A stretch of 64,000 nucleotides of DNA from Euglena gracilis (Eukaryota), in assembly GCA_039621445.1 (NCBI GenBank), contig CP154954.1, positions 22,952,954-23,016,953 of the forward strand, given 5' to 3'. Shown one piece after another: positions 24,171-62,918 of this stretch. Made by a program: the position numbers and the translations under genes. Numbering within the stretch: the stretch's first letter is position 1; every line of letters starts with the position of its first letter. The notes under the pieces were generated by a model. The model was not told the DNA's origin and ran no database searches. It saw only the letters and a program-made list of their open reading frames with translations.

Positions 24171-24850
24171 TGGGTGAGCACATTTGATGTCAATATTTCA
24201 ACATTATGGACCAATCACATGTTTGCTTGCTTTTGTTTGCTTTTCTTTGCTTGCACATGCTGCTCAACGAACCACCTCCAAATGGGTTATTTGGGCCAAA
24301 GCTGATGGTTTTGATGACATTTCAGAAAATTGTGGTGACAAGGTGCAACTAGGCAAAGTATGTGAAGCGTTTTTTTCTCTGTTAAAGGTGTGATTCCTGC
24401 ATTAGGTTTATTGCACACAATTGGATGGGATATAACAAACAGTGCCACCATCAAACAAATTTGCTTGGGGTATCAAGTTGGAATAGGTGAGGGGAAGTTG
24501 TTTGTGAAAAGCATCCACGCCAAGAGGCTTGAATAGAAAAGCACCAGTTTATTGTGGTTAATATGTCATGTGCCAACCACTCTCATGAAGCATCCCAAAA
24601 ACCCCCAGCAAAAAAAGACCAAAGTGGACAAGAGCCTCTCTGGCAGGAAAAAAGAAGCTTATTCCCAAAACCTTGCATTTGCATATTGCAACAAAAAACT
24701 CTTTGACCTCTTTAATCCCTGAGCACCCATTCCAAACGGACCTCTTTGGATGCGTTAGCTTGCCACAACTGCTTTCATGTTGACTGAATGGTCAAAATGT
24801 ATTGTTGGTATGAAAGAATTTTAAGGCAGCTTTGCCCCCCACCTATAGGA

Positions 24851-24930
24851 AAAAATGGCCGAAAATGGCCGAAAATGGCCGAAAATGGCCGAAAATGGCC
24901 GAAAATGGCCGAAAATGGCCGAAAATGGCG
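24851..24930. repeat. (AAAATGGCCG)n decamer array within CACCTATAG...CTATAGGTG inverted termini; sister array at 23157-23221
   Basis: Direct inspection. Confidence 0.8.
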
Positions 24931-26495
24931 AAAATCTGGGGGTCAACTATAGGTGCTTGATAATGATGATGACTTTTCGGTGGAAGCAGAAATTCATATC
25001 CGCAACAACGTCCCCGCAAATTTCCACAATTTCCGCAGTTTTCCCGCATTTTCCACCTTTTTATTTTTTTTCTCCCTCGATCCACATGAATTTGAAACAG
25101 GAGCGTTCTGAGTTCCGGCCATTCCTCAAATGGTTCGCAAGGGAATGCAAGTGCTTTTTTTTGCTATTTTTTTGTAAAAAAGAAATTGCAAAAGTTATCA
25201 AAGTTTGCCATATGTTGCAATTTTCAATTTGGGGCTTTTTTTATTTTTGTTCTTTTTTGGTGAATGGCACCTCAAACGTAAAACGAAACGAAAAAACTTC
25301 AAATGGAAAAGGAGGGAGGTAGCAGAAATGTGCACTCCCAATGTCAATTTTTCCATAGTTTTTCTGTAATTTTTTTCTCGCAGGCCTCCGACATCAATTT
25401 CACCCCTGTATCTCCCAATCGCAAGTTTCGGTTCCTGGCTTCGCTTTGCACCAAGGTCTATGAAAAAGGAGACATGCATTTTGAGAATTGGGAGTTAAAT
25501 GTTGGAAAAAGAACAAAAAATTCAATTCGGAAATTCAAACAGTTCTGCTGCCAGAAAGGAGTGGATAAAAAAGCCAGAAGACAGCACAAGACCAATGCAA
25601 AGCTGGTTTCCAAGTTCTGGCAACCTTGCAGACACAGCCTCTGGAACCCCCACCAAAAAGACAGGTGCAGCGATGTGTGTGTTTGGCAATCTCACCCTCC
25701 CGGCTCAGGGGTTGCTGGTGTGCATGTTCGTGGGTTGTTGGGGTGTTGGGGGGGGGATTGGGAAGGCAGCCTGCCAGAGAAGTGTCTCCCGGCGCCTTTC
25801 GTCCTACCCGCAGGTTCGCTGTCCACAGTTCCCTTCGCCGCCGGGGGGGCCGGCCCCGTTTGGCACGTCGCCATGCCCCAGTGCCCAGGCGGGTCTCGCC
25901 GCTCCCTTTGGCCTTCCTCCAACGCAACGCAGTGCTTTGCACAAGCCCATCAGACCGCCGGCGGCCTTGGTTTGCCCAACGGGGTGGCTTGTCAAAGGCA
26001 CCGCCCCCTCCGCTGCGTTGTCCGGGGTCCATCCCGCCATCCCGCGGTGTTCAATGGCAGGGTCCAGTCCTGCTCGCCACAATGTGGGCTCCCTCGCGCT
26101 GGGTTCAATTTGCAATGGGGAAGGGGTGGGAAAAAGGGAAACCTTGGCTCTCGCACTCCCCCAGCCAGCTCTGTGGCAGAGCGGGCTGGGGGCATTGCTG
26201 TGTCGTGTGGTGCCGTGAAAGTGTGCGGGCAGTGTGCACACACCATCACCGCAGCCCACAGAGGCTGGCTTTGGGGCAGGGGGTTGGGTGTACGCCACAG
26301 ATTTCTCAGATGCACAACGACTTAGTTCCCTCACTGCACGTGTGGGTCAATTCCCAGAAAGTTTTTTGACTTTTTGAGGTCAAATGATAATATTTGGGTC
26401 CTAATTCAGGGCGAGAAATGACAAACCCAATGGTCTGCAGGGCCCGTCCACCCCACCCCTTCAGGGAGGTCAGAGAGAAATCCCTGGTTATGTTG

Positions 26496-26632
26496 CAGGG
26501 GGGGGATATGCAACTTGCATAATTTGCATTTTTTAGCATCATCAGGTTTTTTCCGAAATTCTCATTTTTTTGCATTTTTTTGAATTTTTTTGACTTGCAT
26601 AATTTGAAGGGCCAAGTTGCATATTCCCCCTG
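26496..26632. mobile_element. hAT-like MITE
   Basis: TIR CAG(G)nATATGCAACTTG, perfect 8-bp TSD TTATGTTG. Confidence 0.9.
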
Positions 26633-29600
26633 TTATGTTGCTGGTTGGGGGGGGTGATGAGATTTGCTATTTACCCCAACTCCTGCTGGGGGCACATTTC
26701 CATCGCGATGGAAGTCCCCCTACCCCCCCCCCTTTGCCCACCAACCACCCCAAACAACGACCACCCCCGGTTGGGGTTGCAGGTAAGAGGGGTGCGTACG
26801 ACCACCCCCCTGGTCATGGGTTGTAGGTGGCTTCAAAGATTGGGTTGTTTTTGGCACCCAGTCATGCGACCACCCCCCCCCCTGTTTGGGGGTACCTGGT
26901 CGGTGGGCGAGAGGGGGGGTTACATAATCCCTGGGTCCTGTGGGCGCCACCCCCCATTTATTTCTGCGCGAATCCCTGTACAAATCTTGGATCCTGATGG
27001 CGGACCTGAGAGGTTAAAGGAGACCTGAGGGTACAAGAGATATTTCTCAACCCAACTCACCTCCAACGGGGCGATGTTCACCACACACGCAGTTCCCTCT
27101 CACCCACATCCTGGGAAGTCCCAAGACAACTACGGGATTGGAGACCTGCCTGCAGGCGTCTGTGCCTCCACCCACCGGGGGGGCGTTGACCCCCAAGGGT
27201 CGCCCTGACGGAAGACCTCCATGCGGCGGCCGCCCCCCTGCCAGAGCCTGCCTCGCCCTCCCCACCGACGGGAACGGATCCAACTCACGTGCAACGGTCC
27301 GATTTCTGCACAAGAGAATTTATGCTTTGCCTTCGAAAGCTACCTTGGGGATTATATGTTTTGGCGGGGATGGGGGAATCAGATGTCGGTTTTCAGTATT
27401 TGGGGGTTTATTTTGACACCATTCGGCCGAGCTGTTATGGGCGTTTTACTGTGTGCGTGCATGGATTGCTGTTGCCGCAGTGATAGTCCTGAGTGGAGGG
27501 GTGCGATGGATTTTGTCATTTGGGTCAGAAACAGGACATGCTGGGAGAGCAGAATTGAGAGGTGCACGTAACCCCCCCCCCCAAATAACACCCCCCCCAA
27601 ATAACACCCCCCCCAAATAACACCCCCCCCAAATAACACACCCCCCCTCGGGGGCCGATTTCGAACGCCCAAATAACACACCCCCCTGTTTTCCTTTGGT
27701 TTTCCAGCCCTTTACCCCCCCCCCCCCCCCCCCCCCGGCTCTTTTTCCCGCCCAATTCGAACCCCATAATAACAACCCTGACCTGTGTTCTTTGTTTTGC
27801 CGCTTGTTTTCCATGTAAAAATACCACCCCCCATTTTCCCCAAATAACACACCCCCCCTTTTAGCGAGGCAACCACAGTTCGGGTGCCCAAATAACACAC
27901 CGGGGGGGGTGTTATTTGGGGGGGGGTTTAGAAAGTTGAGGCAGTGTTGGTAATTGAGCAAAATTGAAGAAACAACCCGCAGAGGTCATCTGGAAAAGTT
28001 TAATCCCCACAGAGGGCCTTGGAATCCCGCCCAAGTGCATGGCTGCGATGGCTTTGCATTATGAGGGGAGGTTGCAAGTGAACGTTGGTTTTGTACAAGG
28101 GGGAGGGGGCCAACCCCCAAGGGGAGGGGGGGTCCAGCTCCTCTCCAGGCCAAGGCTGAGGGGGGCGGTCCTGGGGGGGGGTCCCCTGAGACCCAAACTA
28201 TTCTTCTTCCACTGGCGCTTTGTGCGCTTTGCGCCACGCATGTTTTTTATAAGTTTTTGTCCATTTTTTCTAATCAAACCCCTGAAAACATGGTTTTGGG
28301 GGGGGGGCATTTTCTGAAGCTCAAGAAAATCTTCCAGCCGGGTTTTCCCAGGGGGAGGGAAGGGGTCAACCCACCCCCCACTCAGCGCCTAGGGGGTTGG
28401 CCTGGGACCTCCCCCTTCCCCCATTGAATACCCTGGGCGGATCGCTCAGCCATTCCTCCACCTCCGCCATGCTTTGCTGTCCTGTGTTGTTGGGGAGAAG
28501 GAGGGGGCCCAGGAATTCACCGGTCCCGGCCACCATTGCGTCTCAACGGAGGCCCTGTCACTGTCTCGCGGCCAGCGCTGCGGTTCTGGCGAGGCATCTG
28601 TGGGCTGCCCAGAGATGGCAGCGGAAGCCATGCCCCTGGGAAACCCTAACACAAGGCGTTGGTGTTCTATTACGGATTGTCGTTTGTGAAAGCTTTCCAG
28701 TTTGCCTTGGTCTGTGGTTACTGATGATTGCCATCAATCAACGTTGTTTGCTTTCATCTTTTTGTCGGAGGGCTTTTGCTCTGACAGATGTTGCTGAGGG
28801 TGTACATGCAAATCCAAGAACTGAAGTAAACCCTCCAAATATGGAACACCCCCCAAAACCTGCCTTCGGGGCGGAATTGGAAGATTTTTTGGGGGGGAAT
28901 TTTCAGGCGGAAGTTTCATCGGCCCCGGCATCATGCAACGTTTTTTTTTCTGCTTTTCACCAAACATGACCCTTTGGGCAATTTTTCGGACATATTTGCT
29001 TTGATTTGGAATCGTTGAAAAAAATATCTATAACCCCCTTTTCTAGAGAAATTGATAAAAAACCTTCTACAATAACGAAAATTGGTGGGTTTTTGCCGGT
29101 TTTGGAAGCGGTGCCTTGCAGAAATTGGAGGGTTTGGTCTCCAACCCAGGGCTGGGCTAGACCGGAATCCTGGAAATCCCTGTGGGTGGTGGGAAGGGGG
29201 TCAACCCCAACCCCTTCTCTCTTTCCCACAGGCATTCATTTTAAGGAATGCCCCCCAAACAATTAAACCACCACAATATACCCCTGGTCCGGGAGTTCGG
29301 CTTCCCAAATAACATTCCCCTCTGCCGCACCCCAGAGAAGGAACTTTTTGATCAAGAACAGCAGCTTTTGGCACTAATGACTGGGAAAAGATTTGAGGCA
29401 GTATGAACCTAAAATGAAGTGTAAAACATATGAAAAACACAGATTGCATAAAAATCTGCATTACGGGGGTTATTTTTGAGTACACCCCAAATAATACACC
29501 CCTCATAATCCCCTTCTAGGCCACGGCTTCAGATGCCAAATAACTTACCAGCTTACCCCCTCCCCCCGATGTTATTTTGGGGGCTTCAGTTTTCCTTCGT

Positions 29601-32551: not shown

Positions 32552-33606
32552 CACTCCAGCTGTCATGTTTTCATCACAGGTAGACGTCGTCCGGAACAGC
32601 CTCCGTCAGGGAGCTCCCTGTTTTTGGCAACTCTCTCAATCGCTTCCCTTTCCTTTTGGTCTGGCACGCTGGCAGCCTATGTTTGCTGCCCATCCGCAGC
32701 TCTCCCACCTTCCCATGGCCAGTAAGGTGCTTCCCCAAGCCACATCCACTTCACAGGACAGACCAATCAGAATCCAAACTGCACCGCTGTGGCTCGCAAC
32801 CCTCAAAGGGTAACCCCCCCCCTAATAAGTGCACGGGTGCACACAGTTTAAGGACGTAGTTTCGGACCCCAAGGGGTGCGCACTTATTTAGGGCAAAGCT
32901 CACAATGCTTGACTTTCCACCACTCTTTTTCAGTTTTCCCCCTTCTTGTGATGCCAAGCTATGATTCAAGTGGTTATGTGTCAAAGTTGGGTTTGGACGA
33001 TGGAAATATCTGGTCTGAGAAGGACCGTTCTGAGAATTGAGTTTGCTTTCCGACCTGAAATGTGACAACGGTTTCTCTTTTGGGAGGTGTGCACTTTTTA
33101 GGGAGGTAGTTTCGGACCCTTGGGGTGCGCACTTATTAGGGCACTGCGCACAATTAGGGCACTGCGCACTTATTAGGGGGGTTTTACGCTGGGATCGGCC
33201 GTGCCAAGGGGGGGGGTCCCTGCTCGCCGACGCTGCTGCCGAGCCAGAGGCCCGCGGCTGCCGAGCAACTCCCACACTCGGGTGACGCCCCTCGTGCGCC
33301 CTTCCCCCAGCCTCCGACTGCCCTCTGCCTGTGCCCCATGCGGCAAACCCACTCGTGTGTAGGACCCAAATCAGCAAAAAAACCAACCGTTCCGGAGCCA
33401 GCGAAAGGTGAAGTCGTCAGGGGGGGTCTCGCCTGACGACACAGGCAGCCCTCGGCCCAGCGCGGGGAGCCCTCCCCGCCGGCGGCTGCCCCCCGCCCAG
33501 GCGGACCGCCGAGGGAGGCCGGGGGCCCCTCCGCGCCCCCACGCCCAGCAGCCCCCACCCACACCCCAACCCTCCCTGTCGGGCGGGGGTTCCCCTCTTC
33601 GGCCAG

Positions 33607-36600
33607 GCCAGTAGGGGGGCCGCTGCCGCCGCCGGCGCCTCCCTCCCCCTCGCCGCAGTGCCGTTCTGGAGGCGGTGAAGGGTGGCGCCTCCCGGGCCCA
33701 TCGTCCCCCTTTGGTGTCGGCTGGTCACTCGGGTGGGACACCTCCCCCCCGTTGGGGATGTGGGCACAGGGTATTGAGTGAGCGTTGGTAGACCTTTTGA
33801 GACCCTTCGACGAGTCCGATAACCGTCAGTCTTGTTCTGCAATTTGGTCAACCAAGCTTGGCGGCGAAGGGGGGCGATTGCAGGAAGTACGCCTTCGTCT
33901 CGGTCATCAGCAACGAGAAGTACGTGGACGGGGCGATCGTCCTCGCTGTGTCGCTACTCAACACCTCTTACCTGTTGCAGGTGGGCCCCTTCTTCCAGGC
34001 AGTTTCTCGGTTTTAAACGTCCCACCAGTCTTCAACGTCGGCAGGGTGTCTGGGATTTGGATGTGGTGGAGTCCCCACCCCGTCAGATCCTTGGTGGTCC
34101 TGTCTTTATCCCCTCCTTGGGGGGCCATTTTCCTTTTTTTTTTGTTGTTGCCTGGCCCCCCTACACAAGGCGGTTAGGAATCTGCCCGTCGGCCAGGAGT
34201 TCCTGCATGCCACAGGGGCGTGGGACTGCAGCAACTGTTGGGGAGGGGATGGGCACACTGGCTGTGCACCCACAATTGATTTGTTATTCCTTCCTTCTGC
34301 TCCTTCTGCTCAGACGATGGTTCTTTCAAAAAGGAGGAGGAAATCGATGTCAAAAAGGAGGTCCCTCTTTGAGGGGAGCCTTTGCGTCCCGGGACCAGTT
34401 GCCTGCCTTGCCTTGCCTGGCTGTCTAAATCCGGTCCACTAGTTCAACAAAATGACGTCCCCCCACCTGGGCCACCTGCTTTCCCATCTGAAGCATTCGA
34501 CAGGCGTAATACAAAACAAAAACCAGAGCTTGTTAAGGAAAAGTGGAGAATGGAGGAAGCAGTGGTTTTGTGGCATTGCCCAAACGGCGGCACGGGCAAA
34601 AAAGGATCGGTTTGGTGACGCTGAAGGGGGACGGTCCATCGTGATCCACCTCGACTCCTGCAGGAGGGTCTGTGTGAGCTCGTGCTGCTCTGCCCACCCA
34701 CCCTCCACCCGGAGAGCCAGCGGCGGCTGCGAGCGGCGGGCAGGCGTTATTTTCAAGGAAATTTTATAAAAATAAATGTCAAGCTTTAACGCCCCTTTTA
34801 AGGTATTTAAAGGCTTTTAAAGGCTTTTTAAGTCGCTATTTTCCAGGGCTGTCCAAGGGCTATCCGGGCATCGAGCCAACATTTCTGATTTTGCATGTCG
34901 TCCAAATTCAGATGAATCAAAAAAAAATTTCTTGGGTTTTATTGGATGGACAATGTTCCAGCGATGCCAGAAATCGGTTTTCTTCCCACAGTTGGTCTGT
35001 TTCTGCCGCGATTTTAATTTGCAATGTTTGCTTGGTCAGAGAAAATTCCACCAGTCCGGATTTTTAAGGCGTTTTGAGGCATTTTGGCCAGAACTTTTCA
35101 GGTGCAGTTTAAGCCATTTTAAAGTTTTTTAAGGCGTGATAAAAAAATCATGCCTGGCCGTGGGCTACCGCCACCTGCGCAGCGTCCCCAGCCTGGCCCC
35201 CCTCGTGCCGGAGAGCCGCTGGCGGTGCCAGGGCCCCACCGCTGCAGAGCGCCACTCCAGTCAGCCCTCCCCCATCTCCAGGGCAGTGCGGGAATAGGCC
35301 AAACAGCCAGGGTGGTGGGTGGGGGGGGTCCAAGCCCTGACCATCCCTGGGGGGTCCGTGCGGGGGTCGATGCATATGCGGCTCAAGGTGCACGTCCGTC
35401 GGGGGGACGTGTGGGCCGCCGTTGCATAGGTCGTGAGGTCTGGGCACCACCCAAAAGTAATATTGCACAATTTTGTGTTTCCCTGTGCTACAGATAGTTT
35501 TGTGCGTGCGTTCATTTGTCCCCCCACCCTCAATCGGGGTATTTTTTTTAAAACAGAAATTCAAACAGGGGGGCGATGTGTGGCCATTTGAAGTACGGAA
35601 GGACTGTCAACCGTTCTTCTGCTCTGAAGAAGCGGGCAGCTAATGAATGGTGCAAAGGGAGCGGCATCGTTACAGGAGTCAAAGCAGAAGAAGAGGGATT
35701 TTTTTTTTTGTGGTGGGGGTTCGAGTGGTTTTCAATTGGTGGGTGGGTTTGGGCTGTTGGACCCACTCCCTCAGGGTCAGTCTGCACCGGTCGGAGGCTG
35801 GGCCGAGCGCAAATTTTTTGGATTTGGTACCGATTGGGGCGGGCTTTGGGGTGGTTGGGTGGGTTGGTAGACCATCCTTAGCCCCCCCCTCCCCCGGAAG
35901 CACCAAGTGAAGCTAAGCAGGCCCCTGGCCCTCGTTCCGCACCAGGCATACCAACACGGTGGGGGGTGGCTGGAGTTTACAGGGGATCTCTGGGTTGGGC
36001 GGCAAGCCCTGCCCGGGACACCTTCGACAAGCTGTACCTGTGGAACCTCACGGAGTACGCCATGGTCGCCTTCTTCGACGCCGACATGCTCGCCCTCGAC
36101 GAGCCGGACTCCGTCTTCAACTTCCCCCTCCCCAATGAGACGTTCGTCGGTGCCCTGGGCTCTGGTGTGCCATCCAAATCACGACCACGCTGGCGCAACC
36201 CCGACCCCACAGCGCCGTGCCGGGGGGGGCGGGGGTTCAGTTTCTCAGTCATTGAATGGAAGCTGAAAAGGCGCAAAGGTGCTGTGGCTTTGCGGTCGGA
36301 ATCACGCAGGGGTGCTTTTGTTGTTGGTCTTGCCGCCGCCATGCAGCAACTGGGGGACCATTTGGTCCGCCACCCCCCCCCAGGGCTGTACGGGATTCTC
36401 CGAAGCCCTTGGATAGTGGTGGGCGTCGACCCCCCCCCAGCCTTCCCGTTTCTCTTGGTCCACCAATTTCAGGTTCCCTTCCCATACAGCCCTGGCCACC
36501 CCACCTCTAATCACAGAAGTTCTCATTCTGATCTTTCCACAGGAAACAAGAAGTATTTCCAGACAGGTATGATGACCATCCTGCCCCACCGTGACATGTT

Positions 36601-36773
36601 TGATGCGCTGGTCCGCCACTTCCACGCGGGCGTCCGGACAGGCCGATACCGCGGGGTCGGCCAGGAGCTTGCCCCGACCAGTATATTTCAGTTGCAGAAT
36701 CTTTTTTTCCTTGTTTTTTTCCCTGCCTGTTTTGCTTCAAACATGTGGCCCAGGAGGAAACCATGTTGGCGAG

Positions 36774-36815
<42 letters not shown>

Positions 36816-39800
36816 AAACATCCCAGCTCGCCTCGCCTGTCCCAGTGTTTTTTTTAAACACCCGGCAGACCTGTAATTGCAAAAAAAAAAGTGTGTATTG
36901 GCTGGGCCAGCCCTCCAAAAATTGTTGAAGTGCGACGGGATAAAACAGCATGAATGCAACACAACCTCTGAAACCTACACAATCAAAAGAATATGTGATA
37001 TTCTACGTCCAACATGCACTGACGATGCATTTTCCCCTGCCGGAAGTCCCAAAGCCACCGACGGGCTAGTGACGACTCCGGCGTGCCCCTGCCGCGGACG
37101 CGAGGGACGGGGAGGTGGCCCGGGCATTCTTCGGGCCACGCTTCGTGCGGCTCTCGAATTACTACAGCATGCACCGGGCCGCATCTGAGCAGGGGGGGGG
37201 GAAAATTGATATCCGCAATTTTTCCGCAATTTCCGCAATTTTCCGCAATTTCCGCAATTTTCCGCAATTTTCCGCAATTTTTCCGCAATTTTTCCCATTT
37301 TTTTTTCCGCAGAATTTTTTTCCCACCACCGAAGATGGAAGATGCAATGAGTTCAAGCCATTCTTCAAATGGATCAACAGGTGTGCTATTGTGTTTTGTT
37401 GTTTTTTCCCCCCCAGTTTACCAATTTTTCTCACAGGTGCACCACTGGTTACAGAATTGGGTGCGTCCCACCTGTGCAAAGAACATCAAGCGTGTTGATT
37501 TGTGCTTGCCTGCATCGACGTGGGTGTTGCGGTGTTCTGAACCTCACAATTGAAAATTTTCTAAGTCCCCTCAGACAGAAATGTGTATACCCGATATCAA
37601 TTTTTCCGCAATTTTTCCGCAATTTCCGCAATTTTTCCGCAATTTTTCCGCAATTTTTCCGAAGGCCTCCGATATCAATTTTCCCCCCCCCCTGATCTGA
37701 GCCGCTGACCAAGGTGAAGCTGTTCCACTTCCGCGGTGTGTGCGTCCCCTGACGGCACATGAATTTCAGAAGCAAGTGCGGCATGCATTTGGGGTTCTGT
37801 GAGAGCAGGGCCAGCCTGCAAAATGGGTGTGACTGCATGGAACACCCGGCGCACATTTCCAGGGCTGGGTGCTTTGATTTTTGCTTTGCAATTTGCGATT
37901 TTCAATTTCAATTTGCAAAACAACGCCCAAACAAGTGTGTTCCAATTGTGGTCCAGATGAAGACGACGCCTCCCCTTCGCCATTGTTCTATCCATGCGCT
38001 CTACCATTCGGACTCTGAATTTTTGCGACCCAATTTTCTTTCCTTCCTCAGGAGTCAAGCCGTGGTTCGACAAGAGTAGGCCAGAGAACCTGCGGAAATC
38101 TGCATCTGGTGGAGGCCTGGGATTTTTTGTTGTGGTTGCCAGGGGGGGGATGGGCTGGCTTCAGCAAACCAGGTGGCTCATCGTTTCCTCCGCTGAAGTT
38201 CCTCCTCGAGAAAAAGAACGCTGCCTCCAGCGAGGCGCTTCCCCCAGGTCAGGAAGGATGACACAGTGCTGGGGAGAAAGAATCCCTGTGGGTGGCTTGG
38301 AGTTCGGTGCGGCATATCGGCTGTGGTGGGCCGGGGACGGCCCTTCTGACAGCCAACAAAATGAACAAAATGACCGTCGTTACGCTGCTGCTGCTGCTGC
38401 TGATGTGTTTGTTTGTTACATTGTGTCGGGCAGTATCTCGTGCTGCTGCATTGCGCTGTGCTGTGCACTGTGCTGTGCGGGTGCATTCACCTCGTGCGAA
38501 CCAAGTCCCAAGATGGATGGGGGTTTTTTTCAAGAGAGTGGTGGGTTTGGGCCACAGAACCCCCACCCCAGGGGTGGGGTGTGCCACAGGTACGCCCAAC
38601 TACGCCGGGTTTGCCTGGAGAATTTTCAAGGATTGGCTGGTTTCGGGTGGTTTTGGGCTGGGTGAGTGGGTGGACCCTCCCCCAGGACGGGAGGGAGGGT
38701 GGTTTTTCAAAAAGAAGAAGAAGAAGTGGACAGGTGGGCTTTTGCTTGAATAAAGTGCCCTCCCCTCTTGGATCTATGGGGGGGGATCAATGGTTTCCCT
38801 CCCCACAGCCAGCCAAACCACAGACCACCCCTCAATGCATGGGCCAGCCACCACCTGTTCGCCATTCTGCAATCTGCAAGGCACATTCTGCCAATTACGG
38901 AGATTTTTTAAGAATCCTGTGGGTTGTTGCACTGCGTTGCAAGGCGGCATGGAAGGTCCCACTCCTGGGGGGCTGTGGCAGAATGAGGGGATGCATTTTG
39001 AAACCGCTGGCCAAAGAAATCGATTTTGTTTAAGAGAAATCTTTTTGTGTCGATGGTGAGTCCCAGAACCAACACCAACACCGCTGACTGAGGCATGAAC
39101 AGGAAACCGGAAATCCTTTGGGTTGCGTCGAGGAAGAGGGTGCCCCCCGCCACGTCTCATTTTGCTGTGTTGCCAATTTGTCAGCTAAAGGTTCTTCAAC
39201 ACTTGTGGTGCCGAATGGTTTTTCGCTTGCGGAGTCAATGATAGGTGGGGGAGGGGGGGTCCCGACCACACCATTGCTCAAGTTGCATTCGAACCCACCC
39301 CCGGAGGATGACTGAATGGTTTTTTCGGTTGTGGCTCCAGACTCCCCGGGGGGGGGGGGTCGGCCAGGATTGCCCGAAAGTGGCTACCTGGCGCCTTCGC
39401 TTTCGGCGTGAAAAATTTGGTGTTTTTGGCCAAAACTCATTGATTCTGAGGCATTTTTGGCCGAGTGGTCAAAGTGACTGACCGCCCCCCCCCCGGAGTG
39501 GGGTAAACAGTGGGTGACCAGTTTTTAAAAAGTGACTGGTTTTTTTGAAAGTGGAAAGTGTCCCCCCTCCCCCCAGGGGGTCGGTAAGCAATGGCATGGT
39601 CCCCACCTCCCAGGGGGGCTTCCACCCACACCCACCAGGCCTCCTCGCAACAGGCGTCTGGCCCTGCTGGGGTGTGTGCCTGCTGCGGGGCTGCCCCGCT
39701 CAAGGGTCGGTGTGACGATGTCTGGCGGCGGTGCATTGCGCCGCGGCGTTCTCGGGGAGCGCCGGCCCCTTCCGGAGCACTACGAGCAGTTCCACCGCAT

Positions 39801-42628
39801 CGAGTACGGGCGGGGCCACGAGCCCGCCGAGGGGTGGGGCGCCGGGGCCGCCGTCGCGGGCCCAGGCGGCGGCATGGCGCGCCGCCGTCTGCCGGGGGCA
39901 CCCGGCCACCCACGTCTGGATGCTGCGGTACAGCGCCGGGACGTACGTGCAGCCCCTGCGGGCGGAGGTGCTGCGGCGGCTCAACGTGACGTACGCGGGG
40001 ATGGCCCTCCGCCCCGGGCCCGAAGGCGTGTGGCGCTGGGCCGGTGGCCCTCGCACGTTTGCCACCGAAGCCATATGGCCATGCCCTTTGGGGTTCCACT
40101 TTTCGGCAGGCGGGTGTTCTTGTTTTTTGCAACGTTGCCGGTGCATCAAATTGTGCCGCCAAACGAGAGGCAATTGATTCCAATCCTGCCAGACAAAATT
40201 TTGGTCAAGCAGCCCAAAGCTGAGTTTCGATTTCCACCGTCCAAATTTTGATGCAGGTGATGCAGTCAGTAGATCATGCTCATGGGTCTCCATTCAACAT
40301 CCATGTCAATGATCACAGAAGCGACATGCCCAGTTTTAACAGCTTTCTTGGGTTTGTTCTGATTTTTTTTAAGGTCGAAGTGCTTTCACCTTTGTTCGCT
40401 TCCACGGGAATTTCTTTTTCAATTTTCATTGTTTCTGAAAATCAGTTTGTTTTGTCCCAGAAAAAATACCACCAACGTAAAAGTCGACAATCACAACATT
40501 AATTTGTAGGCAATGTTCGTGAAATTCTTACAACCAAAAAAATTTTGTAGCAGCGGCACCAGCTCTTGGGGCCCCTTCACTCTTTGCATTGGGCTGCTTC
40601 CAAAAGCAGATGAGTTTCAATGAGGATATTGGGGTATCGGTGGTTTGCCATCATTTGCAATGCTCTCCGTGTGCCTCTTCCTTCCCTCCCTTTCTGGATG
40701 TTTTGTCTGTGTCGTGGTGTGTGCATGTGTGTGTGTGTGTGTGTATGTGTTGATGAATGGACCTCATCGCCCTGAGGTCGGTGGGGTCCCCCCTGCCTGG
40801 GAAGCCCCCCCCACCTGCCCGTCTCAGGTCATTCTTGTACCAGTGTCTGCGGCCGTTTCAATGAGTCATGCACTGACCGAGGGGAGATGCCCTGAATTTG
40901 AATTTGATGTGCACAATTACTTCTTGCAAAAAAAGCCCTGCAAGTGACAGTAGCAAGAGGAACGACTTCACATCATCTTTGCTCTGTGTTTTCTCACATG
41001 TTGTTTTTTATCTGCAGATGTGTTTTGCCATCTGCCTGCTTTTTTGGCGATGGTGCCCCGATACATGCTTGGGAAGAAGGCTCAATTTGGACCCAAAATT
41101 GACCATTGACCACAACTTCCCCATTTGACCCAAAATGGGGCCACCACATTGTCACTGAAGGGTCGCACGGACTGAGAATCCTTGTCAATCCGTACTGACA
41201 CACTGCCACAGCTCCAGCCCCCCCCCCCCCAACGCGCAACCCCGAGACACACTGGTCGGTGGCCCCTCCCTCCCCGGCTGCTGACGCTGACCCCCGTCAA
41301 CTCCTGCGCGGCACTGAGCCAGGCCCAGAGGATTTCTCAGGCCGGAGAGGACCCCCCTCCCCCCAAGGGGCTCCAGCCGGCCAGGGGTTGTTTCTTCCCA
41401 GCCAGGCTGCCAAGTCCAGTGGCACTAAACCACCCCCCCCCCGCACCTCCATCCACCTCCGTCCAACCAGTTGCTGTTTCATTCTCCATGGGTTGTCAAG
41501 GAACCCCCTGCCTTGGCTTTCCAGACAGCGTGCTCTGAATGCATCGTTGACCGCTCCAGCGCAATGCCCAGGGGCAGACGTCCGCCGCAAGGCACTGGTT
41601 GCAGGAATTACAAACAGTTCACCATTATATTTCTTCAATTCTTTTTTTGAAAGCCCCACAGTGACCTCCTGGTGTCCTGTAACCCCCCTCCCCCATGTGA
41701 GCAACCCCCTCTTGCAGCAACCCCCAAATATGCGCAACCCCCAAATATAATCAACCTCTGACTGAATGATATGAAGGAATTTGCATTAAAACGGTATAAA
41801 AACGGCAGATATCAGCTTATTCTAAATATGGCCAACCCCAAATACACCCAAAACCTTAAAAAATGGGGGTTGAGTAAACCCCCCCAAATAACACCCCCCC
41901 CCAGTGGGTTATTTGGGCACCCGAACTGAGGCCCCAGGGGGATGTCATTTGGGGGGGGGGGTTATTTTTGCATGGAAAGCCAAACGAAAACAGGGGGGGT
42001 GTTATTTGGGTGCTCGAAATCGGCCCTCGAGGGGGGGGGGGTGTTATTTTGGGGGGGGTTGGGGGGGTGTTATTTGGGGGGGGGTTAGTTTTTTCCGATG
42101 TTCTTTTTTTCCCGACCACCCCACCTGGGTTGGAGGCCTCCCAGTCACAGGGGTTGCCCTCTGGGGGTCCAGGACCCCTGAAATTTTCCTTCCCCGGCAC
42201 TTCGTGTTGGGAAGTGAAGTTTTGAATACATTTTTGCCAATTTCTTTTAAAAGTGCGCAAGAACGTGATTTTGAGGGTTTATGCCCGAAAAAAGTTTTCT
42301 GCCATTTTTGCGCCGAGTTTTCTCGTGACCAATGTCCCCCCTCCAAAGCCCCCTCCTTCCAAGAAATTTTGCACCTGCCTGCATCTGACCAGAGGGCCCA
42401 GCCAATCCCCTCCAATATCCCCAGGTGGTGACACAACAAGGTGATTGCGGCTGATAAACAAGGGTTGTATGTGGTTGATCCACCTCTGCCTCACCGACCC
42501 CGTGGATCCAGCCCAAATCCTCCCAGTGCTTCATCAACTTCTTATACAACCCAGCGACCATGCCAACGTGCCGCGCCAGCGATCCAGGAGCTCGCAGATT
42601 ATGCGCCTGTTCACCAACAACGGGTTGA
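33607..42628 (+). CDS. Glycosyltransferase family 8 (glycogenin-like) protein with Cys-rich C-terminal domain; start not identified
   Basis: Exons ~33607-33674, 33884-33980, 34664-34737, 35162-35225, 36017-36164, 36543-36658, 37097-37186, 37699-37735, 38052-38113, 38294-38329, 39775-39830, 39871-40025, 40828-40878, 41276-41322, 41516-41566, 42494-42628. GT8 motifs in order: YAFVSVISNEKYVDGAIVLAVSL, TFDKLYLWNLTEY, DxD (FFDADML), YFQTGMM, HFRGVKPW, LWWEHY. Confidence 0.85.
33884..33980 (+). CDS. GT8 exon (KYAFVSVISNEKYVDGAIVLAVSLL)
   Basis: Glycogenin-type N-terminal motif, AG/GT boundaries. Confidence 0.85.
34664..34737 (+). CDS. GT8 exon (EGLCELVLLCPPTLHPESQRRLRAA)
   Basis: ctgcag acceptor; matches the glycogenin beta2-helix pattern. 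Confidence 0.75.
35162..35225 (+). CDS. GT8 exon (GYRHLRSVPSLAPLVPESRWR)
   Basis: Flanked by two non-conventional introns; in phase. Confidence 0.7.
36017..36164 (+). CDS. GT8 catalytic exon with DxD motif
   Basis: DTFDKLYLWNLTEYAMVAFFDADML. Confidence 0.9.
36543..36658 (+). CDS. GT8 exon (NKKYFQTGMMTILPHRDMFDAL...)
   Basis: ccacag acceptor; equivalent of the FNSG motif. Confidence 0.8.
37097..37186 (+). CDS. GT8 exon (DARDGEVARAFFGPRFVRLSNYYSMHRAAS)
   Basis: Equivalent of the DQG.LN..F...L...YN region. Confidence 0.75.
37190..37694. mobile_element. MITE that constitutes a GT8 intron
   Basis: Perfect 24-bp TIR CA(G)10AAAATTGATATC, flanking ATCTGAG duplication, subterminal CCGCAATTTTT arrays. 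Confidence 0.9.
37699..37735 (+). CDS. GT8 exon (EPLTKVKLFHFR)
   Basis: First half of the HF.G..KPW motif, GTGTGT donor. Confidence 0.8.
38052..38113 (+). CDS. GT8 exon (GVKPWFDKSRPENLRK...)
   Basis: KPW motif after an ttcctcag acceptor; 3' end uncertain. Confidence 0.65.
39775..40025 (+). CDS. GT8 exons EHYEQFHRIEYG and AWRAAVCRGHPATHVWMLRY...PGPEG, split by a ~40-nt intron
   Basis: Two GC3-rich segments in different frames. Confidence 0.65.
40828..42628 (+). CDS. GT8 C-terminal Cys-rich domain exons (40828-40878, 41276-41322, 41516-41566, 42494-42628)
   Basis: SCTSVC..FNESC / VNSCAAL / CSEC / CFIN / TCRASDPGARRLCAC then TGA. Confidence 0.7.
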
Positions 42629-45207: not shown

Positions 45208-45499
45208 CTATGCAAAGGAAGCAGTCCTCGCATTCTGAATGATTTGAAGGAGTGCTGAAGAAATACAAAGACAACATGATCACAGGACGGAATTGAACCT
45301 GAACCAAGTACAACAAAAAGGAGGACGCCAAGGACAACAGGACCAACAGCGACCTTATCAGCCTTTTTCTTATCCTCTGGGTGAACTTTCTTTCCGATTT
45401 GGCCGTTGTATTTATCAGACCTCTTGGAAATTGTCCTTGGTTTACCAGGCTGAAAGTCAAAATATTGGTTGGCGCATGGAAACAGGACGCCCACACCAT
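45208..45499 (-). CDS. SERP1: Stress-associated ER protein / ribosome-associated membrane protein 4 (RAMP4/SERP1), 66 aa
   Basis: Exons 45497-45499 (ATG), 45299-45449, 45208-45254 with 47- and 44-nt GT-AG introns give MPGKPRTISKRSDKYNGQIGKKVHPEDKKKADKVAVGPVVLGVLLFVVLGSALLQIIQNARTASFA*, carrying the VGP..L....FVV.GSA..QII tail-anchor signature. Confidence 0.92.
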
Positions 45500-45554
45500 T
45501 TCTGTTCAAATTGCGTCGATCCTAATTCATTACGCTAATTCATCACACCAGCCC

Positions 45555-45579
45555 CTTTCTGAGTGTCTATTTTTTTTCG
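45555..45579 (+). other. Genomic copy of the euglenid spliced-leader exon at the 5' end of a retrotransposon
   Basis: CTTTCTGAGTGTCTATTTTTTTTCG matches nt 2-26 of the Euglena gracilis SL as recalled; not followed by a GT SL-intron; 14 nt before the ORF1 ATG. Confidence 0.88.
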
Positions 45580-45593
45580 TCTGCATAACCACC

Positions 45594-46766
45594 ATGGCTG
45601 CAAAGGGGCCGGATGGCCCTCCAGAAGACCCCAAGACTCAAGACAATACACCCCTTGTCAATCAAGCTGCTACCACAACCAACCCTTCAAGTACACCTAC
45701 TGCTGCAGTGGACACTGGACAGTTGGAGCTGCTGGCCAAGATGTTGTTGCCGCTGTTGGTGCCGGTGCTAACCACTGCTGTGGCACAACGACTCACTGCT
45801 GACCGCCCTGTACATAGTGACAGAGAAAGTCAAGACAGCAGCTCACAGAGAAGGAAGAGGACTTGGCAAGAGAGGGAAGAGCATGAAGAGTACCTACAGA
45901 GAAGGTTTGGAAGAGATTACAAGCCCCCATGGCAGAGAGGTCGACCCAGTTATCATATATCTCAACAGAGTTCTCCTCAGCCCCAGCTCCACCAGCAAGT
46001 GAGTCTGGGGCCCCCCTGTACAGCAAGCCCAGCAGTGGGCATTCCACAGTCAGGCCCATCAGTGGGCATTCCAATGAACAGCCCATTCCAATGCCCACCA
46101 GTGGGTAGAAGTCAAGTATGTCCATCTGTCACATCAATCATACAAATGTACATTCCATCACAGACCAACCTTTGGGGTGAACCCCAGCAATCTCAGCAAC
46201 CACTGCAATCAAACTGGAGCAGAGAAGATGACCAGAGGAAGAATTGGACCAGAGAAGAAGAGCAGAGAAGGAGAGAGGCTGAACTCTTCAGAAGCCTCAG
46301 AGCCTTTCTCAGCACAGGCCAGAGTACTCAAGTCCCCCCCCTCCCAACACCATTACACAACCCTGGCCTGCCAGCACCCTTAATCCCAGATGTGGTACTG
46401 GCATCACCATCAGCCTTCCAATGTGCTTTTCTGCCTGCAGCTTTCCCTTTTGTCTCACAAAGTCCCCCCCAAAGAGGGGACAACTCAACACAATACTTTC
46501 ACCCAGTAAAACAAATGGATCAAGAATTTCATCCCAAGGCAACTCCAAATCAAAATGAGTTGGCAAAACAACCCCCCCCCCCAACCCAAAAGAGGAGGAT
46601 CATCAACCCCAGCCAAATGCAACTCCAAAAAATCTCAGCACCAGCCCCCCAATATCAGCCCCCCCTGCAAGAGGGGGGGGGCCAGGCACACCCTTTCGCA
46701 TTTTTAAAATTCCAACAAAACCCACCATGTTTGATGGCACACAGTGGGCCAAACTGGGCACAGTGA
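45594..46766 (+). CDS. Retrotransposon ORF1 (Pro/Gln/Ser-rich, function unknown)
   Basis: First ATG after the SL copy (accaccATGg), 390 codons, overlaps ORF2 in the -1 frame. Confidence 0.7.
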   Translation: MAAKGPDGPPEDPKTQDNTPLVNQAATTTNPSSTPTAAVDTGQLELLAKMLLPLLVPVLTTAVAQRLTADRPVHSDRESQDSSSQRRKRTWQEREEHEEYLQRRFGRDYKPPWQRGRPSYHISQQSSPQPQLHQQVSLGPPCTASPAVGIPQSGPSVGIPMNSPFQCPPVGRSQVCPSVTSIIQMYIPSQTNLWGEPQQSQQPLQSNWSREDDQRKNWTREEEQRRREAELFRSLRAFLSTGQSTQVPPLPTPLHNPGLPAPLIPDVVLASPSAFQCAFLPAAFPFVSQSPPQRGDNSTQYFHPVKQMDQEFHPKATPNQNELAKQPPPPTQKRRIINPSQMQLQKISAPAPQYQPPLQEGGGQAHPFAFLKFQQNPPCLMAHSGPNWAQ

Positions 46767-49700
46767 TCCTGCAGGAGGAACCCAGCCCCTTTCAATGGCA
46801 AGACCCCCCCCAGGCAACAGATTTACCAGCTTCCCCACCCAACACCCCCCTGGAAGGGGTCCCAGTTTGGGAAAAACCAGAGTTTCGGTCCCTCAGGGAA
46901 GAATTTTTTTGGAGAAGGCGCATGAGACAGCAAGCAGGAGGCATTTTATTTCACGAGATGGTCGCCAGAAAACTGGCCAACATTCAGGAAAAGTGGGTCG
47001 ACATTGGCAGAACAGTGGACATTCGGGAGTCACAAAAAATGGTGCACACAGACATGAAACTCACGTTGCCATTGGCAGCGCCAAACGTTGTGCAACCGCC
47101 CCCCCCACCAAAAAAGAACCTCATCCTGGAACGGATCAGAATCGCCCAGATTCTTCATCAATACCGACCAGAGGAACAACGTGAGGAAGGAGTGGACATG
47201 TCGCACATAGAAAAAGTACGCCGAGCTATCGCACAAAAAATCAAACAAAAAGTGCCTGCAGCTGAAGCAGTCTGCCGCCCGAGGACAAAGAAGAGGCTGA
47301 CACCCTCCCGAGAACCAACCCTGCCCATTGCCTGGCGATACTGCCCAAGAATTTGGCAGATGGATGACATGCCCAGACCGTTACAGTTTGCGTGTGAGGT
47401 TGGATTGGCTGATCGTCTTTCCCCGTCTGTATGGACTGCCACCGATCTTGATGACTCAAATGACTCCCTGTCGGACTATTACTCTTGTGCTGGCACAAAA
47501 AAATTCCGCATGGCAGAAACAGCCGGCAACATACACCCCTGCTCTGCAAGCCCACACGGGGGGAAGAAGCCGGAAGATGCATATCTGAAGACGGGGCGAG
47601 GTGATTCTCTGACAACAATGGGTGATGTGGAAACCAATCCAGGCCCGCTGACGGTATTTAATGGACCCTGTGGTGAAGTCATGGATTTATTGGACCAACT
47701 TGTTGCCATGAACATGACTGATTTCTTTCGGATCAAGGCCGAACTACCGTTGCGGCAAGGCCCCGATGGCTCCTCCCAATCACTTCTTCCCAAAGCTACA
47801 TACTGGCTGAAATGCACTTTGTGTGACATTGAAACCATCACTGCCTCGGCAGGTTGGTGCTTGCACCACAGGGAAACCTGCCCTGTTTTTTCAGCCACAG
47901 TATATCCATCTACTGAGACAGCCAAAGTACACTCCATAACAAGCCGAGGATACACGGCAGAACAAACCCGGGAAAAGTTTTCAGAAGGACACCAGCCGAC
48001 TGGAAGGGGGGAACGAATCACCACCCATGGTGACGTCCAAACACAACCAGGACCCATCTACTTCCGTCTGGCTACCATGGAAAGACCAACAATCCCTGTC
48101 TCCAGGGGACTTCAAGAAAACTTCATCCGGCACAGATTGCTGGCGAGCCTTCAAGAGGTGGATGCAGAACTTCAAAGTTTCCGAGACGCCTTCCTTTCCG
48201 ATGTCCTGGTTGAGGACACTACCGTCTATGAGCTCACCGAATGTTGGGAAGTTTTGAGAGGAGTTCTGTTTGTGCTCATAGGGCTATGGCCACATCGACC
48301 ACCACGTCACGACTCCCCATCGAGTGTACATGCCATTATGTGGTTGCTAACTTGTTTATGGTCCGAAGTATGCAACATCGGCGAGGCCTTTCACCTCTAC
48401 CTGCCCCCTATTCGCCTAATGACACTACCCAACGTTCTCCGGCCGAGAGGCACTTTCCCCAGAGTACCTCCAACGGAGCCCTCCTCGTCCGACCTCTCCC
48501 CATTGAATGCACACACCGTTGATATCCTGGACATCATGGCCTTCTTACGTCCGACAAGATCAGTAGTTTCAGTTGACCGTCATGTCCGGAGGGCACGACG
48601 GACAGCACAAAGACAACCAAACTACCAACGAGGTGACCAACACGGTGATATAAGCCCTAACGACGCTGTCATAGCCGAGAGGCCCAGACACCAAGATGTC
48701 ACACTTTGTGGTGACGTTCAGCTCGAGCCGGGACCTATTCACCGCACACCCCCACGTGAAGGACCCCTATCCCTGCGACCTAGCACCCAGCCCCATTGCC
48801 GACGACCAACTTGCACTCTGGCCCCAGGGCCTTTTAAGTTGTCCAATGTGGCCCCAGGGCACGCCAACCATGTACGGCAACTGATTGACCAGGAAAAAAC
48901 GCGGTATGGGTACAGTCCCCCCAGCTGTGGCAGGGGTAAAAGCCTTGCCAGTTGTGGCGACATTGAAAGCAACCCAGGTCCCACAGAAACCCGCCCTCCA
49001 CAGCAGGAAGACGTTGAAATGGCCTCAGCCGCACAAACCTCTGCTGTGCCGCCGACGGAGCGACCTCTCCTTGGATCTTGGTTTCCAATGCACTCGACGC
49101 CGCTGTTCTCGCCTACTTTGTCCCAGGCTGTAATGCCGTTTCCCAGTTTGAACGGGGGCCCCGGGGCACCCGCAGCTGAGCAAATCATGGTCATTGACGA
49201 ACTAGAGTCCCGGGTGCGCTCAGTGATTTCCGAAATTCACGGGCATGCGCCGCAGGGCCAGGGCTTGACTGAGAATTTTGTGCCGTCCTTACCACAAGGG
49301 CAAGAGCAAGAGTGCCAAAATGGTCGAAGGCCGCAGCCCCCCGTGGCCCCAGCACCAGCGCAATCCTCGACGAACAATGATACGGTGCAAGTCACTCCCA
49401 CTCCCTTCTCGCAACCTTGCCCACCACTGCAGCCATCTTGGGAAGAAATTTCCCAAGACAGTCGAGGCACGTTGGTCCATATCCCACGGGGAGCGTTGCG
49501 AAACGTAGGGCTCGCCTTTTGCAGCACCCTCAGTCGCTTTGTGTCCAAGCCAGGATGGGAGACCCTACACGCACTTTGGTGCTTCCCAAAAGCTGTGCTT
49601 GCTCCATTGAAGCGCAGCGGGAAAAGCCATTGGGCTGCAGTTGGACGGAAAATTACTGAGAGAGCCAATGCCTACCTCAACCGGTCCACAGAAGATTCGT

Positions 49701-62897: not shown

Positions 62898-62918
62898 GGC
62901 GTACTCCTCGGAGATGTA

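What the first reader, a model, noticed from the sequence alone, without database searches (positions are those of the whole stretch)
37183..37701. A coding-gene intron that is exactly one young MITE: apparent transposon-driven gain of a non-conventional intron
Seen: the GT8 reading frame (...HRAAS|EPLTKVKLFHFRG) is interrupted by a 505-bp element (37190-37694) with a perfect 24-bp TIR (CA-G10-AAAATTGATATC), subterminal CCGCAATTTTT arrays and a flanking ATCTGAG duplication. No register within the duplication gives GT..AG. Removing the element plus one duplication copy restores the frame. A diverged relative lies at ~24978-25408 (GGCCTCCGACATCAATTTCACCCCTG end). Known: euglenid non-conventional introns have CAG at +4..+6 paired with CTG at -8..-6. 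Inference: the TIR ends supply the CAG/CTG and the TSD supplies the unpaired flanks, so this family behaves as an introner for the non-conventional pathway. The duplication is 7 nt here, so splicing must use a 3+4 or 2+5 register, because 3+5 would frameshift.
Basis: partly seen in the sequence, partly recalled or inferred. Interest (0 to 1): 0.92.

Follow-up and report, generated by a model that had tools for sequence, protein, structure and literature searches.

The report
Young transposon splitting a coding exon
A small mobile DNA element has recently landed inside the protein-coding part of a sugar-transferase gene of a Euglena-type alga; its ends look just like the signals of that group's unusual introns, but another sample's DNA simply lacks the element, so it is not yet shown to be cut out of RNA as an intron.

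Summary
The sequence observation is confirmed. A 505-bp element (37190-37694) has a perfect 24-nt terminal inverted repeat, subterminal 10-11-nt arrays and a 7-nt duplication, ATCTGAG. It interrupts an exon of a glycogenin-like GT8 gene, and removing 512 nt restores the frame.

The intron reading is not shown. RNA lacks the element (joint 37182>37695 in 3 of 3 RNA runs). So does a 1231-nt genomic DNA contig of run X2, which keeps the neighbouring introns. The element is therefore an insertion polymorphism with a living empty allele. In two RNA runs the joined transcripts carry the exon SNPs of the empty DNA haplotype. The third run is ambiguous.

The ends match the published Euglena non-conventional splicing code (N3-CAG...CTG-N5-6|purine, PMC12501133). 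With a 7-nt duplication, however, no frame-restoring register fits that code. The preferred 3+5 cut would remove 513 nt and give ...AAS-SR-stop.

My best reading is a young, high-copy MITE caught in an exon, at most a leaky proto-intron. The idea that MITEs gave rise to these introns is already published as a hypothesis. This locus makes it testable.

The parts
37097..37182 (+). GT8 exon upstream of the insertion. The coding sequence continues to 37189 in the filled allele (...FFGPRFVRLSNYYSMHRAASE).
   Evidence: RNA joints 36658>37097 and 37182>37695; translation.
37183..37189 (+). Target-site duplication, copy 1 (ATCTGAG).
   Evidence: D19. The empty site in X2 DNA holds one copy (record 17).
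37190..37213 (+). Left terminal inverted repeat, 24 nt, beginning with CAG.
   Evidence: 0 mismatches; 0 of 100 shuffles reach 2 matches; I1.
37212..37303 (+). Left subterminal tandem array (unit TCCGCAATTT(T), about 9 copies).
37304..37597 (+). Internal region of the element. It is too short to encode a transposase and shares blocks with the relative at 24987-25408.
37598..37661 (+). Right subterminal tandem array (unit CAATTTTTCCG, 6 copies), in the same orientation as the left array.
   Evidence: (D1, D2).
37671..37694 (-). Right terminal inverted repeat, 24 nt, ending in CTG on the + strand.
   Evidence: The stem is present in both the MFE and centroid folds.
37695..37701 (+). Target-site duplication, copy 2 (ATCTGAG).
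37702..37734 (+). Rest of the interrupted exon (PLTKVKLFHFRG), ending at a GT..AG intron (37735-38050).
24987..25408 (+). Older, diverged member of the same family. Its CAG...CTG ends are retained, the G-run is lost, and no duplication is recognisable.

Best explanation
A non-autonomous DNA transposon (MITE) of a very abundant family inserted recently into a coding exon of a glycogenin-like GT8 gene and made a 7-nt target-site duplication.

Shown:
- The insertion is polymorphic. The window carries the filled allele, and another DNA sample carries the exact empty site.
- The element-free mRNAs seen in public RNA runs come, at least in two of three runs, from an empty-type allele.

Inferred:
- The element's ends (N3-CAG, 24 bp of pairing, CTG, then a purine 5 or 6 nt further on) meet the experimentally defined Euglena non-conventional splicing code. 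Pre-mRNA of the filled allele would therefore probably be cut by that pathway.
- The preferred 3+5 cut removes 513 nt, not 512. That shifts the frame to ...AAS-SR-stop and probably triggers mRNA decay.
- Only the disfavoured 3+4 cut restores the message.

The filled allele is therefore a null or leaky allele, a proto-intron at most, and not an established intron.
For: Anatomy:
- Terminal inverted repeat, target-site duplication and subterminal arrays are as described.

Empty site in DNA:
- X2 contig record 17 (1231 nt, depth 43.1) joins 37182 to 37695 with no extra letter and keeps the flanking introns.
- X2 covers 30 of 30 bins. Its depth is a flat 35-57 in single-copy exon and intron bins alike, as DNA does.
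- Of the 12 RNA-supported joints among the 15 rows shown (26 more rows were not shown), 11 are absent from X2. Only the element joint is present.

Haplotypes:
- At 36568 and 36596 the X2 DNA and the X16 RNA contig that carries the joint have the non-window letters.
- X21 reads show them in 6 of 6 and 7 of 7.

Published code (PMC12501133, sections 7, 8, 10, 11 read):
- CAG/CTG are essential.
- A change of plus or minus 1 nt in the 5' spacer is not tolerated.
- A 3' spacer shortened by 1 nt gives about 20% transcript.
- 50-bp synthetic introns with only these features splice.

This gene:
- 5 of 7 RNA-verified non-GT-AG introns of this gene fit the code in an allowed register.
- 0 of 9 frame-restoring registers of the element fit it.
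- The 513-nt register (37187-37699, next base A) does fit.

Family abundance:
- The element bins have word depth 2.8-5.6e5 in X2, against 35-50 beside them.
Against: - X18 (RNA by its spliced contigs) carries the 512-nt joint on a contig whose neighbouring exon has the window's letters at 36568 and 36596. X18 also has the window's letters at 37016 and 38381. It differs from the window at 37150 (G>A). If that allele is filled, precise in-frame removal is already demonstrated. I could not tell whether it is filled.
- The 20% figure for a 4-nt spacer comes from one intron in one reporter.
- No 513-nt joint was among the 15 joint rows shown.
Confidence: 0.5

Rival explanations
1. One reading: the element is a working non-conventional intron at birth. 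The filled allele's pre-mRNA loses exactly 512 nt (3+4 register, downstream exon starting with G37699), so the insertion is nearly silent.
For: - The ends carry CAG/CTG with 24 bp of pairing, and a purine follows a 4-nt spacer.
- A 4-nt spacer still gave about 20% transcript and some paramylon in the reporter (PMC12501133, section 8).
- X18's joined contig is window-like at 36568 and 36596.
- A strain-specific new non-conventional intron with 8-nt direct repeats is on record in E. agilis gapC (PMC4770533, passages).
Against: - The joined form exists as DNA (X2), so no RNA joint seen here proves splicing.
- X21 and X16 transcripts carry the empty haplotype's SNPs.
- No frame-keeping register fits N3...N5-6.
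- X18's allele differs from the window at 37150.
Confidence: 0.35
2. The element is not recognised by any splicing pathway. The filled allele yields a transcript that retains 512 extra nt with stops, which makes it a plain null allele tolerated because other gene copies exist.
For: - RNA reads lie on the element in X21 (depth 2.3-3.8 per strand) while other introns are at 0-0.06.
- No evidence of excision from a filled allele was obtained.
Against: - Those reads can come from any of the very many other copies, because reads count from 95% likeness.
- Synthetic sequences with only CAG/CTG, spacers, pairing and a purine are spliced (PMC12501133, section 10), and the element has all of these features for the 513-nt register.
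Confidence: 0.1
3. Assembly artefact: the element was placed in the gene by a mis-join and no real chromosome carries it there.
For: - Only the window itself shows the filled form among what I could lay.
Against: - A perfect 7-nt duplication of exactly the sequence present once in the empty allele is the signature of transposition, not of a mis-join.
- Three other CAG...CTG elements in the window have exact 7-8-nt duplications.
Confidence: 0.03

Closest known systems
Euglena non-conventional (NC) introns, with the splicing code 5'-N3 CDG ... CH'G N5-6 | R (Nomura et al. 2025, PMC12501133; outline, sections 7, 8, 10, 11 and passages read)
   Same: CAG and CTG sit at the ends of a long terminal stem. 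A 3-nt 5' spacer is available. A purine lies 4, 5 and 6 nt after the CTG. Other introns of the same gene follow the code.
   Different: Removal from RNA of a filled allele is not shown. With a 7-nt duplication, no frame-keeping register has the 5-6-nt 3' spacer. The element is a high-copy repeat with a perfect duplication and a living empty allele.
Strain-specific, recently gained NC intron 4 of gapC in Euglena agilis ACOI 323, with 8-nt direct repeats at its borders (Milanowski et al. 2016, PMC4770533; passages read, Table S3 not seen)
   Same: Presence/absence polymorphism within a species, and a long direct repeat at the borders (8 nt here if the C of CAG is counted).
   Different: That case was called an intron, and its authors attributed it to double-strand-break repair. 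No repeat family was tied to it. Here the inserted DNA is plainly a member of a repeated TIR family, but its status as an intron is open.
MITE-origin hypothesis for NC introns (Milanowski et al. 2014, PMC3935182; review PMC11282704; passages read)
   Same: This is exactly the predicted object: a MITE in an exon whose inverted repeats are the CAG/CTG stem and whose duplication lies at the junctions.
   Different: The hypothesis had no named transposon family behind it. The 2014 paper says none was known in euglenids, and the 2025 PNAS paper says the origins remain unclear. This copy's 7-nt duplication does not give the 3+5 geometry.
Introners: MITE-like DNA transposons that create spliceosomal introns (Micromonas and others). 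Huff et al. 2016 was seen only as a reference entry. The review PMC11282704 was read in passages.
   Same: A non-autonomous TIR element whose insertion brings or completes splice signals, with the duplication taking part in the junctions.
   Different: Those elements use the spliceosome and GT/AG or variants. Here the pathway would be the euglenid non-spliceosomal one. Multiple intronic copies were not examined because no genome is held.
hAT- or P-type MITEs with subterminal repeat arrays, such as Ac/Ds (recalled, not tested)
   Same: Termini begin with CAGGG, duplications are 7-8 nt, and short repeats are arrayed inside both ends.
   Different: No transposase was found in the window (0 of 92 ORFs scanned), so the superfamily is unassigned.

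Membership tests
MITE (non-autonomous class II transposon) | Terminal inverted repeats | tested here: met
   24 of 24 nt complementary. There are 2 matches in the window, against 0 in 100 shuffles.
MITE (non-autonomous class II transposon) | Target-site duplication, with an empty site holding one copy | tested here: met
   ATCTGAG flanks both ends. X2 DNA contig record 17 joins 37182 to 37695 with no extra letter.
MITE (non-autonomous class II transposon) | Short, with no transposase gene | tested here: met
   The element is 505 bp, of which about 156 bp are tandem arrays. Its own short ORFs were not scanned against Pfam.
MITE (non-autonomous class II transposon) | Many copies in the genome | tested here: met
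   Summed word depth on the element is 2.8-5.6e5 in X2, against 35-50 in the flanks. It is 7.7e3-1.1e4 in X16 and X18. Depth is not a copy number. There is one diverged copy in the window. No genome is held for a count.
MITE (non-autonomous class II transposon) | Assignable superfamily or autonomous partner with the same ends | not testable with these tools
   No DNA transposase domain in 92 of 105 window ORFs scanned. No genome is held.
Euglenid non-conventional intron | Absent from mature mRNA although present in the DNA of the same allele | tested here: inconclusive
   The joint is seen in 3 of 3 RNA runs, but also in DNA run X2. X21 and X16 transcripts carry the empty haplotype's SNPs. The state of X18's allele is unknown.
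Euglenid non-conventional intron | 5' N3 followed by CDG | tested here: met
   GAG|CAG, with the intron starting at 37187 (shift 4).
Euglenid non-conventional intron | CH'G followed by N5-6 and then a purine, in a register that restores the message | tested here: not met
   0 of 9 registers that remove 512 nt fit. The feature is met only if 513 or 514 nt are removed, which shifts the frame.
Euglenid non-conventional intron | Base pairing inward of CAG/CTG | tested here: met
   A 24-bp perfect stem, present in both the MFE and centroid structures.
Introner (transposon family that generates introns) | Many near-identical copies that are verified introns of unrelated genes | not tested
   No genome is held. 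The one other copy in the window (24987-25408) has no RNA evidence.
GT8 / glycogenin-like glycosyltransferase (host gene) | Sequence similarity across the DxD region | tested here: met
   The peptide of exon 36014-36160 hits 19 PDB sequences, all glycogenin, best E = 7.6e-4. Pfam on the fragments gave no GT8 hit.

The most novel reading that the evidence does not exclude
The CAGGG-ended MITEs of this genome, which make 7-8-nt duplications, are the long-sought source of euglenid non-conventional introns. On this reading the element ends are the splicing code, the duplication supplies the unpaired spacers, and the odd 3+5 rule mirrors an 8-nt duplication. The GT8 copy would then be an intron at the moment of birth, removed in frame through the 3+4 register in the filled strain. 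X18's window-like joined transcript would be its product.
Probability: 0.3. Interest if true: 0.9.

Novelty: new member of a known kind. Interest (0 to 1): 0.62.

Why it matters
How euglenids acquired their non-spliceosomal introns is an open question. These introns make up 71.8% of introns in E. agilis (PMC12501133, abstract). A MITE origin has been proposed since 2014, but no concrete transposon family has been tied to it in the papers I found.

This locus offers a high-copy MITE whose ends equal the experimentally defined splicing code. The element sits in a coding exon, and filled and empty alleles both exist. One RT-PCR on a filled strain would show three things:
- whether such an insertion is excised;
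- in which register it is excised (512, 513 or 514 nt);
- whether duplication length (7 or 8 nt) decides which insertions can survive as introns.

If the insertion is out of frame, the locus instead documents the cost side of the process.

Tried and rejected
- Whole-genome count of the inverted repeat: no genome is held for this window.
- RNA holders: no RNA holder was listed in the index. RNA status of X16 and X18 was inferred from their spliced contigs.
- Metagenome scan with a 20-nt end motif: 1 locus (L001), an unrelated chance match with no arrays and no CAG end.
- Pfam on ORF or exon fragments of the gene: no GT8 hit. The only hit was a sub-threshold Cas9_Topo match at E = 0.1, which is noise.
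- Search for an autonomous partner in the window. I scanned 92 ORFs, drawn from 120 stop-to-stop ORFs of at least 130 aa. Fifteen were dropped by a low-complexity filter. Thirteen were dropped because they overlap 35151-38750; one of these was scanned and another only in part, and the rest, including the element's own ORFs, were not scanned. No DNA transposase was found.
- Relic duplications at the older non-conventional introns. I compared 8-nt windows (exon -5..-1 plus intron +1..+3, against intron -5..-1 plus exon +1..+3) for 6 introns. They match at 25 of 48 positions, and 45 of 720 permutations reach that, so the result is weak and not used.
- Overall fold energy of the element RNA is not unusual (z = -0.63). 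Only the terminal stem is informative.
- Reading the duplication as 8 nt (ATCTGAGC) does not change the splice geometry, because the CAG-to-CTG distance is fixed.
- Supplements are closed. The Nomura SI (spacer variants, Datasets S7/S8) and Milanowski 2016 Table S3 (the 8-nt repeat) may bear on the 3+4 question and were not seen.

Full report
OBSERVATION. The window holds, at 37190-37694, a 505-bp element bounded by a perfect 24-nt inverted repeat: CAG, ten G, then AAAATTGATATC.
- The repeat gives 2 matches in the window, against 0 in 100 shuffles.
- Inside both ends lie tandem arrays of a 10-11-nt unit, at 37212-37303 (9.1 copies) and 37598-37661 (6.0 copies).
- The element is flanked by ATCTGAG on both sides. 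The identity runs to 8 nt because the base after the second copy is C, like the first base of the element (D19, 'both' = 8).
- The reading frame ...YYSMHRAASE continues as PLTKVKLFHFRG once 512 nt are removed.
- A diverged relative lies at 24987-25408. It has 74% column identity and shared subterminal and internal blocks.

THE GENE. Laying one raw RNA run (X21), two contig sets that behave as RNA (X16, X18) and one DNA contig set (X2) on 33500-40000 gave 12 RNA-supported joints among the 15 rows shown; 26 more rows were not shown.
- The joints define a multi-exon gene. Its spliced translation reads KYAFVSVISNEKYVDG...DTFDKLYLWNLTEYAMVAFFDADMLALDEP...KVKLFHFRGVKPWFDK....
- The exon with the DxD motif hits only glycogenins in the PDB: 19 sequences, best E = 7.6e-4.
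- Pfam saw nothing in the short fragments.
- Two introns are GT..AG (33976-34658 and 37735-38050).
- Seven are not. Of these, 5 have an allowed register that fits the published Euglena code N3-CDG...CH'G-N5|R. In one of the five the middle bases do not pair. One more has the same 3+5 geometry with GGG/CCC, and one does not fit.
- The organism is therefore a euglenid by its intron type.

THE DECISIVE RESULT. The joint 37182>37695 is present in all three RNA sets: 7 reads in X21, and one contig each in X16 and X18. It is also present in DNA.
- X2 contig record 17 (1231 nt, depth 43.1) runs 36926-37182 and then 37695-38670 with no letter between.
- The same contig keeps part of intron 36659-37096, the whole GT..AG intron 37735-38050, and intron 38114-38293.
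- X2 covers 30 of 30 bins. Its depth is a flat 35-57 in single-copy exon and intron bins alike, and it shows none of the other 11 RNA joints. It is therefore genomic DNA and not partly spliced RNA.
- The element is thus an insertion polymorphism. The window has the filled allele and X2 has the exact empty site with one copy of the duplicated heptamer.
- This is strong evidence for recent transposition. It also removes the force of the RNA joint as evidence for splicing.

WHICH ALLELE IS TRANSCRIBED. X2 differs from the window at many sites. Two lie in the exon next to the interrupted one: 36568 T>C and 36596 A>G.
- The X16 contig that carries the joint has the X2 letters at both sites.
- X21 reads show the X2 letters in 6 of 6 and 7 of 7. 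These transcripts fit an empty-type allele.
- X18 is different. Its joined contig has the window's letters at 36568 and 36596, and X18 also matches the window at 37016 and 38381.
- X18 nevertheless has a private G>A at 37150, 33 nt from the joint, and the non-window letter at 34699.
- Whether that third haplotype is filled cannot be told from what I have. If it is filled, in-frame removal is already shown.
- This is the main result against my preferred reading.

COMPARISON WITH THE PUBLISHED CODE. Nomura et al. 2025 defined the requirements by knock-in (PMC12501133; outline, sections 7, 8, 10, 11 and passages read).
- CAG and CTG are essential.
- The 5' spacer must be exactly 3 nt; one more or one fewer abolishes function.
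- The 3' spacer is best at 5 nt and tolerated at 6. At 4 nt the transcript falls to about 20%.
- A purine starts the next exon, and about 12 bp of pairing inward of CAG/CTG is needed.
- Wholly synthetic 50-bp sequences with only these features splice like wild type.

The element has CAG, CTG, 24 bp of pairing, and purines at 4, 5 and 6 nt after the CTG. By that standard the pathway should recognise it.
- The CAG-to-CTG span is 505 nt, and the message needs 512 nt removed. That leaves 7 nt to share between the two spacers.
- None of the 9 equivalent 512-nt registers gives 3 plus 5-6.
- The code-perfect register (37187-37699) removes 513 nt. It reads ...GCA TCT | AGC CGC TGA, that is AAS-SR-stop. 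This follows directly from the sequence and from the frame.
- My inference is a mostly out-of-frame, decay-prone product with a minor in-frame fraction through 3+4.

THE FAMILY AND ITS RELATIVES.
- Summed word depth over the element is 2.8-5.6e5 in X2, against 35-50 beside it. It is 7.7e3-1.1e4 in X16 and X18. Depth is not a copy number, but the family is clearly very abundant and is present in RNA.
- A scan of the window for CAG...CTG elements with similar ends and an exact duplication of at least 6 nt found 4. Ten shuffles gave 0 nine times and 1 once.
- The four are 6782-7613 (7 nt, AAGCAAC), 26277-26884 (7 nt), 26496-26632 (8 nt, TTATGTTG, nested in the previous one) and the GT8 copy (7 nt).
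- All four start with CAGGG. The group therefore makes 7- and 8-nt duplications.
- Only the 8-nt class would be removed exactly by a 3+5 cut.
- No DNA transposase was found in the window, in 0 of 92 ORFs scanned. The hAT- or P-like flavour (CAGGG ends, 7-8-nt duplications, subterminal arrays) is a recalled resemblance, not a test.

WHAT IS KNOWN.
- The MITE origin of these introns is a published hypothesis (Milanowski 2014, PMC3935182, passages; review PMC11282704, passages).
- Milanowski 2016 (PMC4770533, passages) reported a strain-specific new non-conventional intron in E. agilis gapC with 8-nt direct repeats and suggested double-strand-break repair.
- Nomura 2025 still writes that the origins remain unclear.
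- The E. gracilis chromosome-level genome paper (PMC11252322, passages) reports 58.84% repeats and does not mention MITEs in its main text.
- In four full-text searches I found no paper that ties a named repeated TIR family to such an intron. Supplements were closed.

VERDICT.
- The element is a young, polymorphic, high-copy MITE in a coding exon. About 95% of my belief sits on that part.
- That it is an intron is not shown, and the geometry argues that this copy is a poor one.
- My estimates are 0.5 for a leaky or null proto-intron, 0.35 for a working in-frame intron, 0.1 for no excision and 0.03 for an artefact.
- The locus is valuable as a natural test of a twelve-year-old hypothesis, and one RT-PCR in a filled strain would settle it.

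Noticed in passing
window 6782-7613: An 832-bp element of another family with a 15-nt perfect inverted repeat (CAGGGATTCCCACAA) and an exact 7-nt duplication, AAGCAAC. It is inserted into a short-unit repeat (AAATRTAAGCAACCCC). No open frame crosses the reconstructed empty site.
   Followed up: partly
window 26277-26884 and 26496-26632: Nested CAGGG...CCCTG elements. The outer one is 608 bp with a 7-nt duplication, TTTGGGG. The inner one is a 137-bp MITE with an 8-nt duplication, TTATGTTG.
   Followed up: partly
window 36162/36541-36542: The RNA contigs of X16 and X18 hold one extra letter between 36162 and 36542; table 5c names it as C for X16. The frame is kept only with it. The acceptor is therefore probably 36541, where the window has A. 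That would be a synonymous TCA/TCC difference. This intron (36163-36540) does not fit the published code.
   Followed up: partly
window 39858-39894: A 37-nt skip in RNA (X21 5 reads, X16 contig) that is absent from X2 DNA. It fits the code N3-CAG...CTG-N5|G at shift 2, so it is a very short non-conventional intron.
   Followed up: partly
window 34802-35018, 35236-35452, 39359-39575: Stretches inside three non-conventional introns of the GT8 gene have summed word depth of 6e3-6e4 in X2, against about 40 beside them. High-copy repeats therefore sit inside these introns. The intron ends themselves lie in single-copy bins, except possibly the 5' end of 35223-36013.
   Followed up: no
window 46559-52087 (+): An uninterrupted 1843-aa open frame with a reverse-transcriptase domain (RVT_1, E = 1.1e-12), preceded by a 487-aa open frame at 45303-46763. 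It is probably a young retroelement.
   Followed up: no
window 62331-62918 (-): A 196-aa open frame with a Dam-type N6-adenine DNA methyltransferase domain (PF05869, E = 6.6e-11).
   Followed up: no
window 24850-24934: A tandem array of about 8 copies of GGCCGAAAAT lies directly upstream of the diverged family member. It weakly resembles the reverse complement of the element's own array.
   Followed up: no
window 36381-36494: A 114-bp CAGGGCTGTA...TACAGCCCTG inverted-repeat element inside intron 36163-36540. The bin has about 3-fold raised depth in X2.
   Followed up: no
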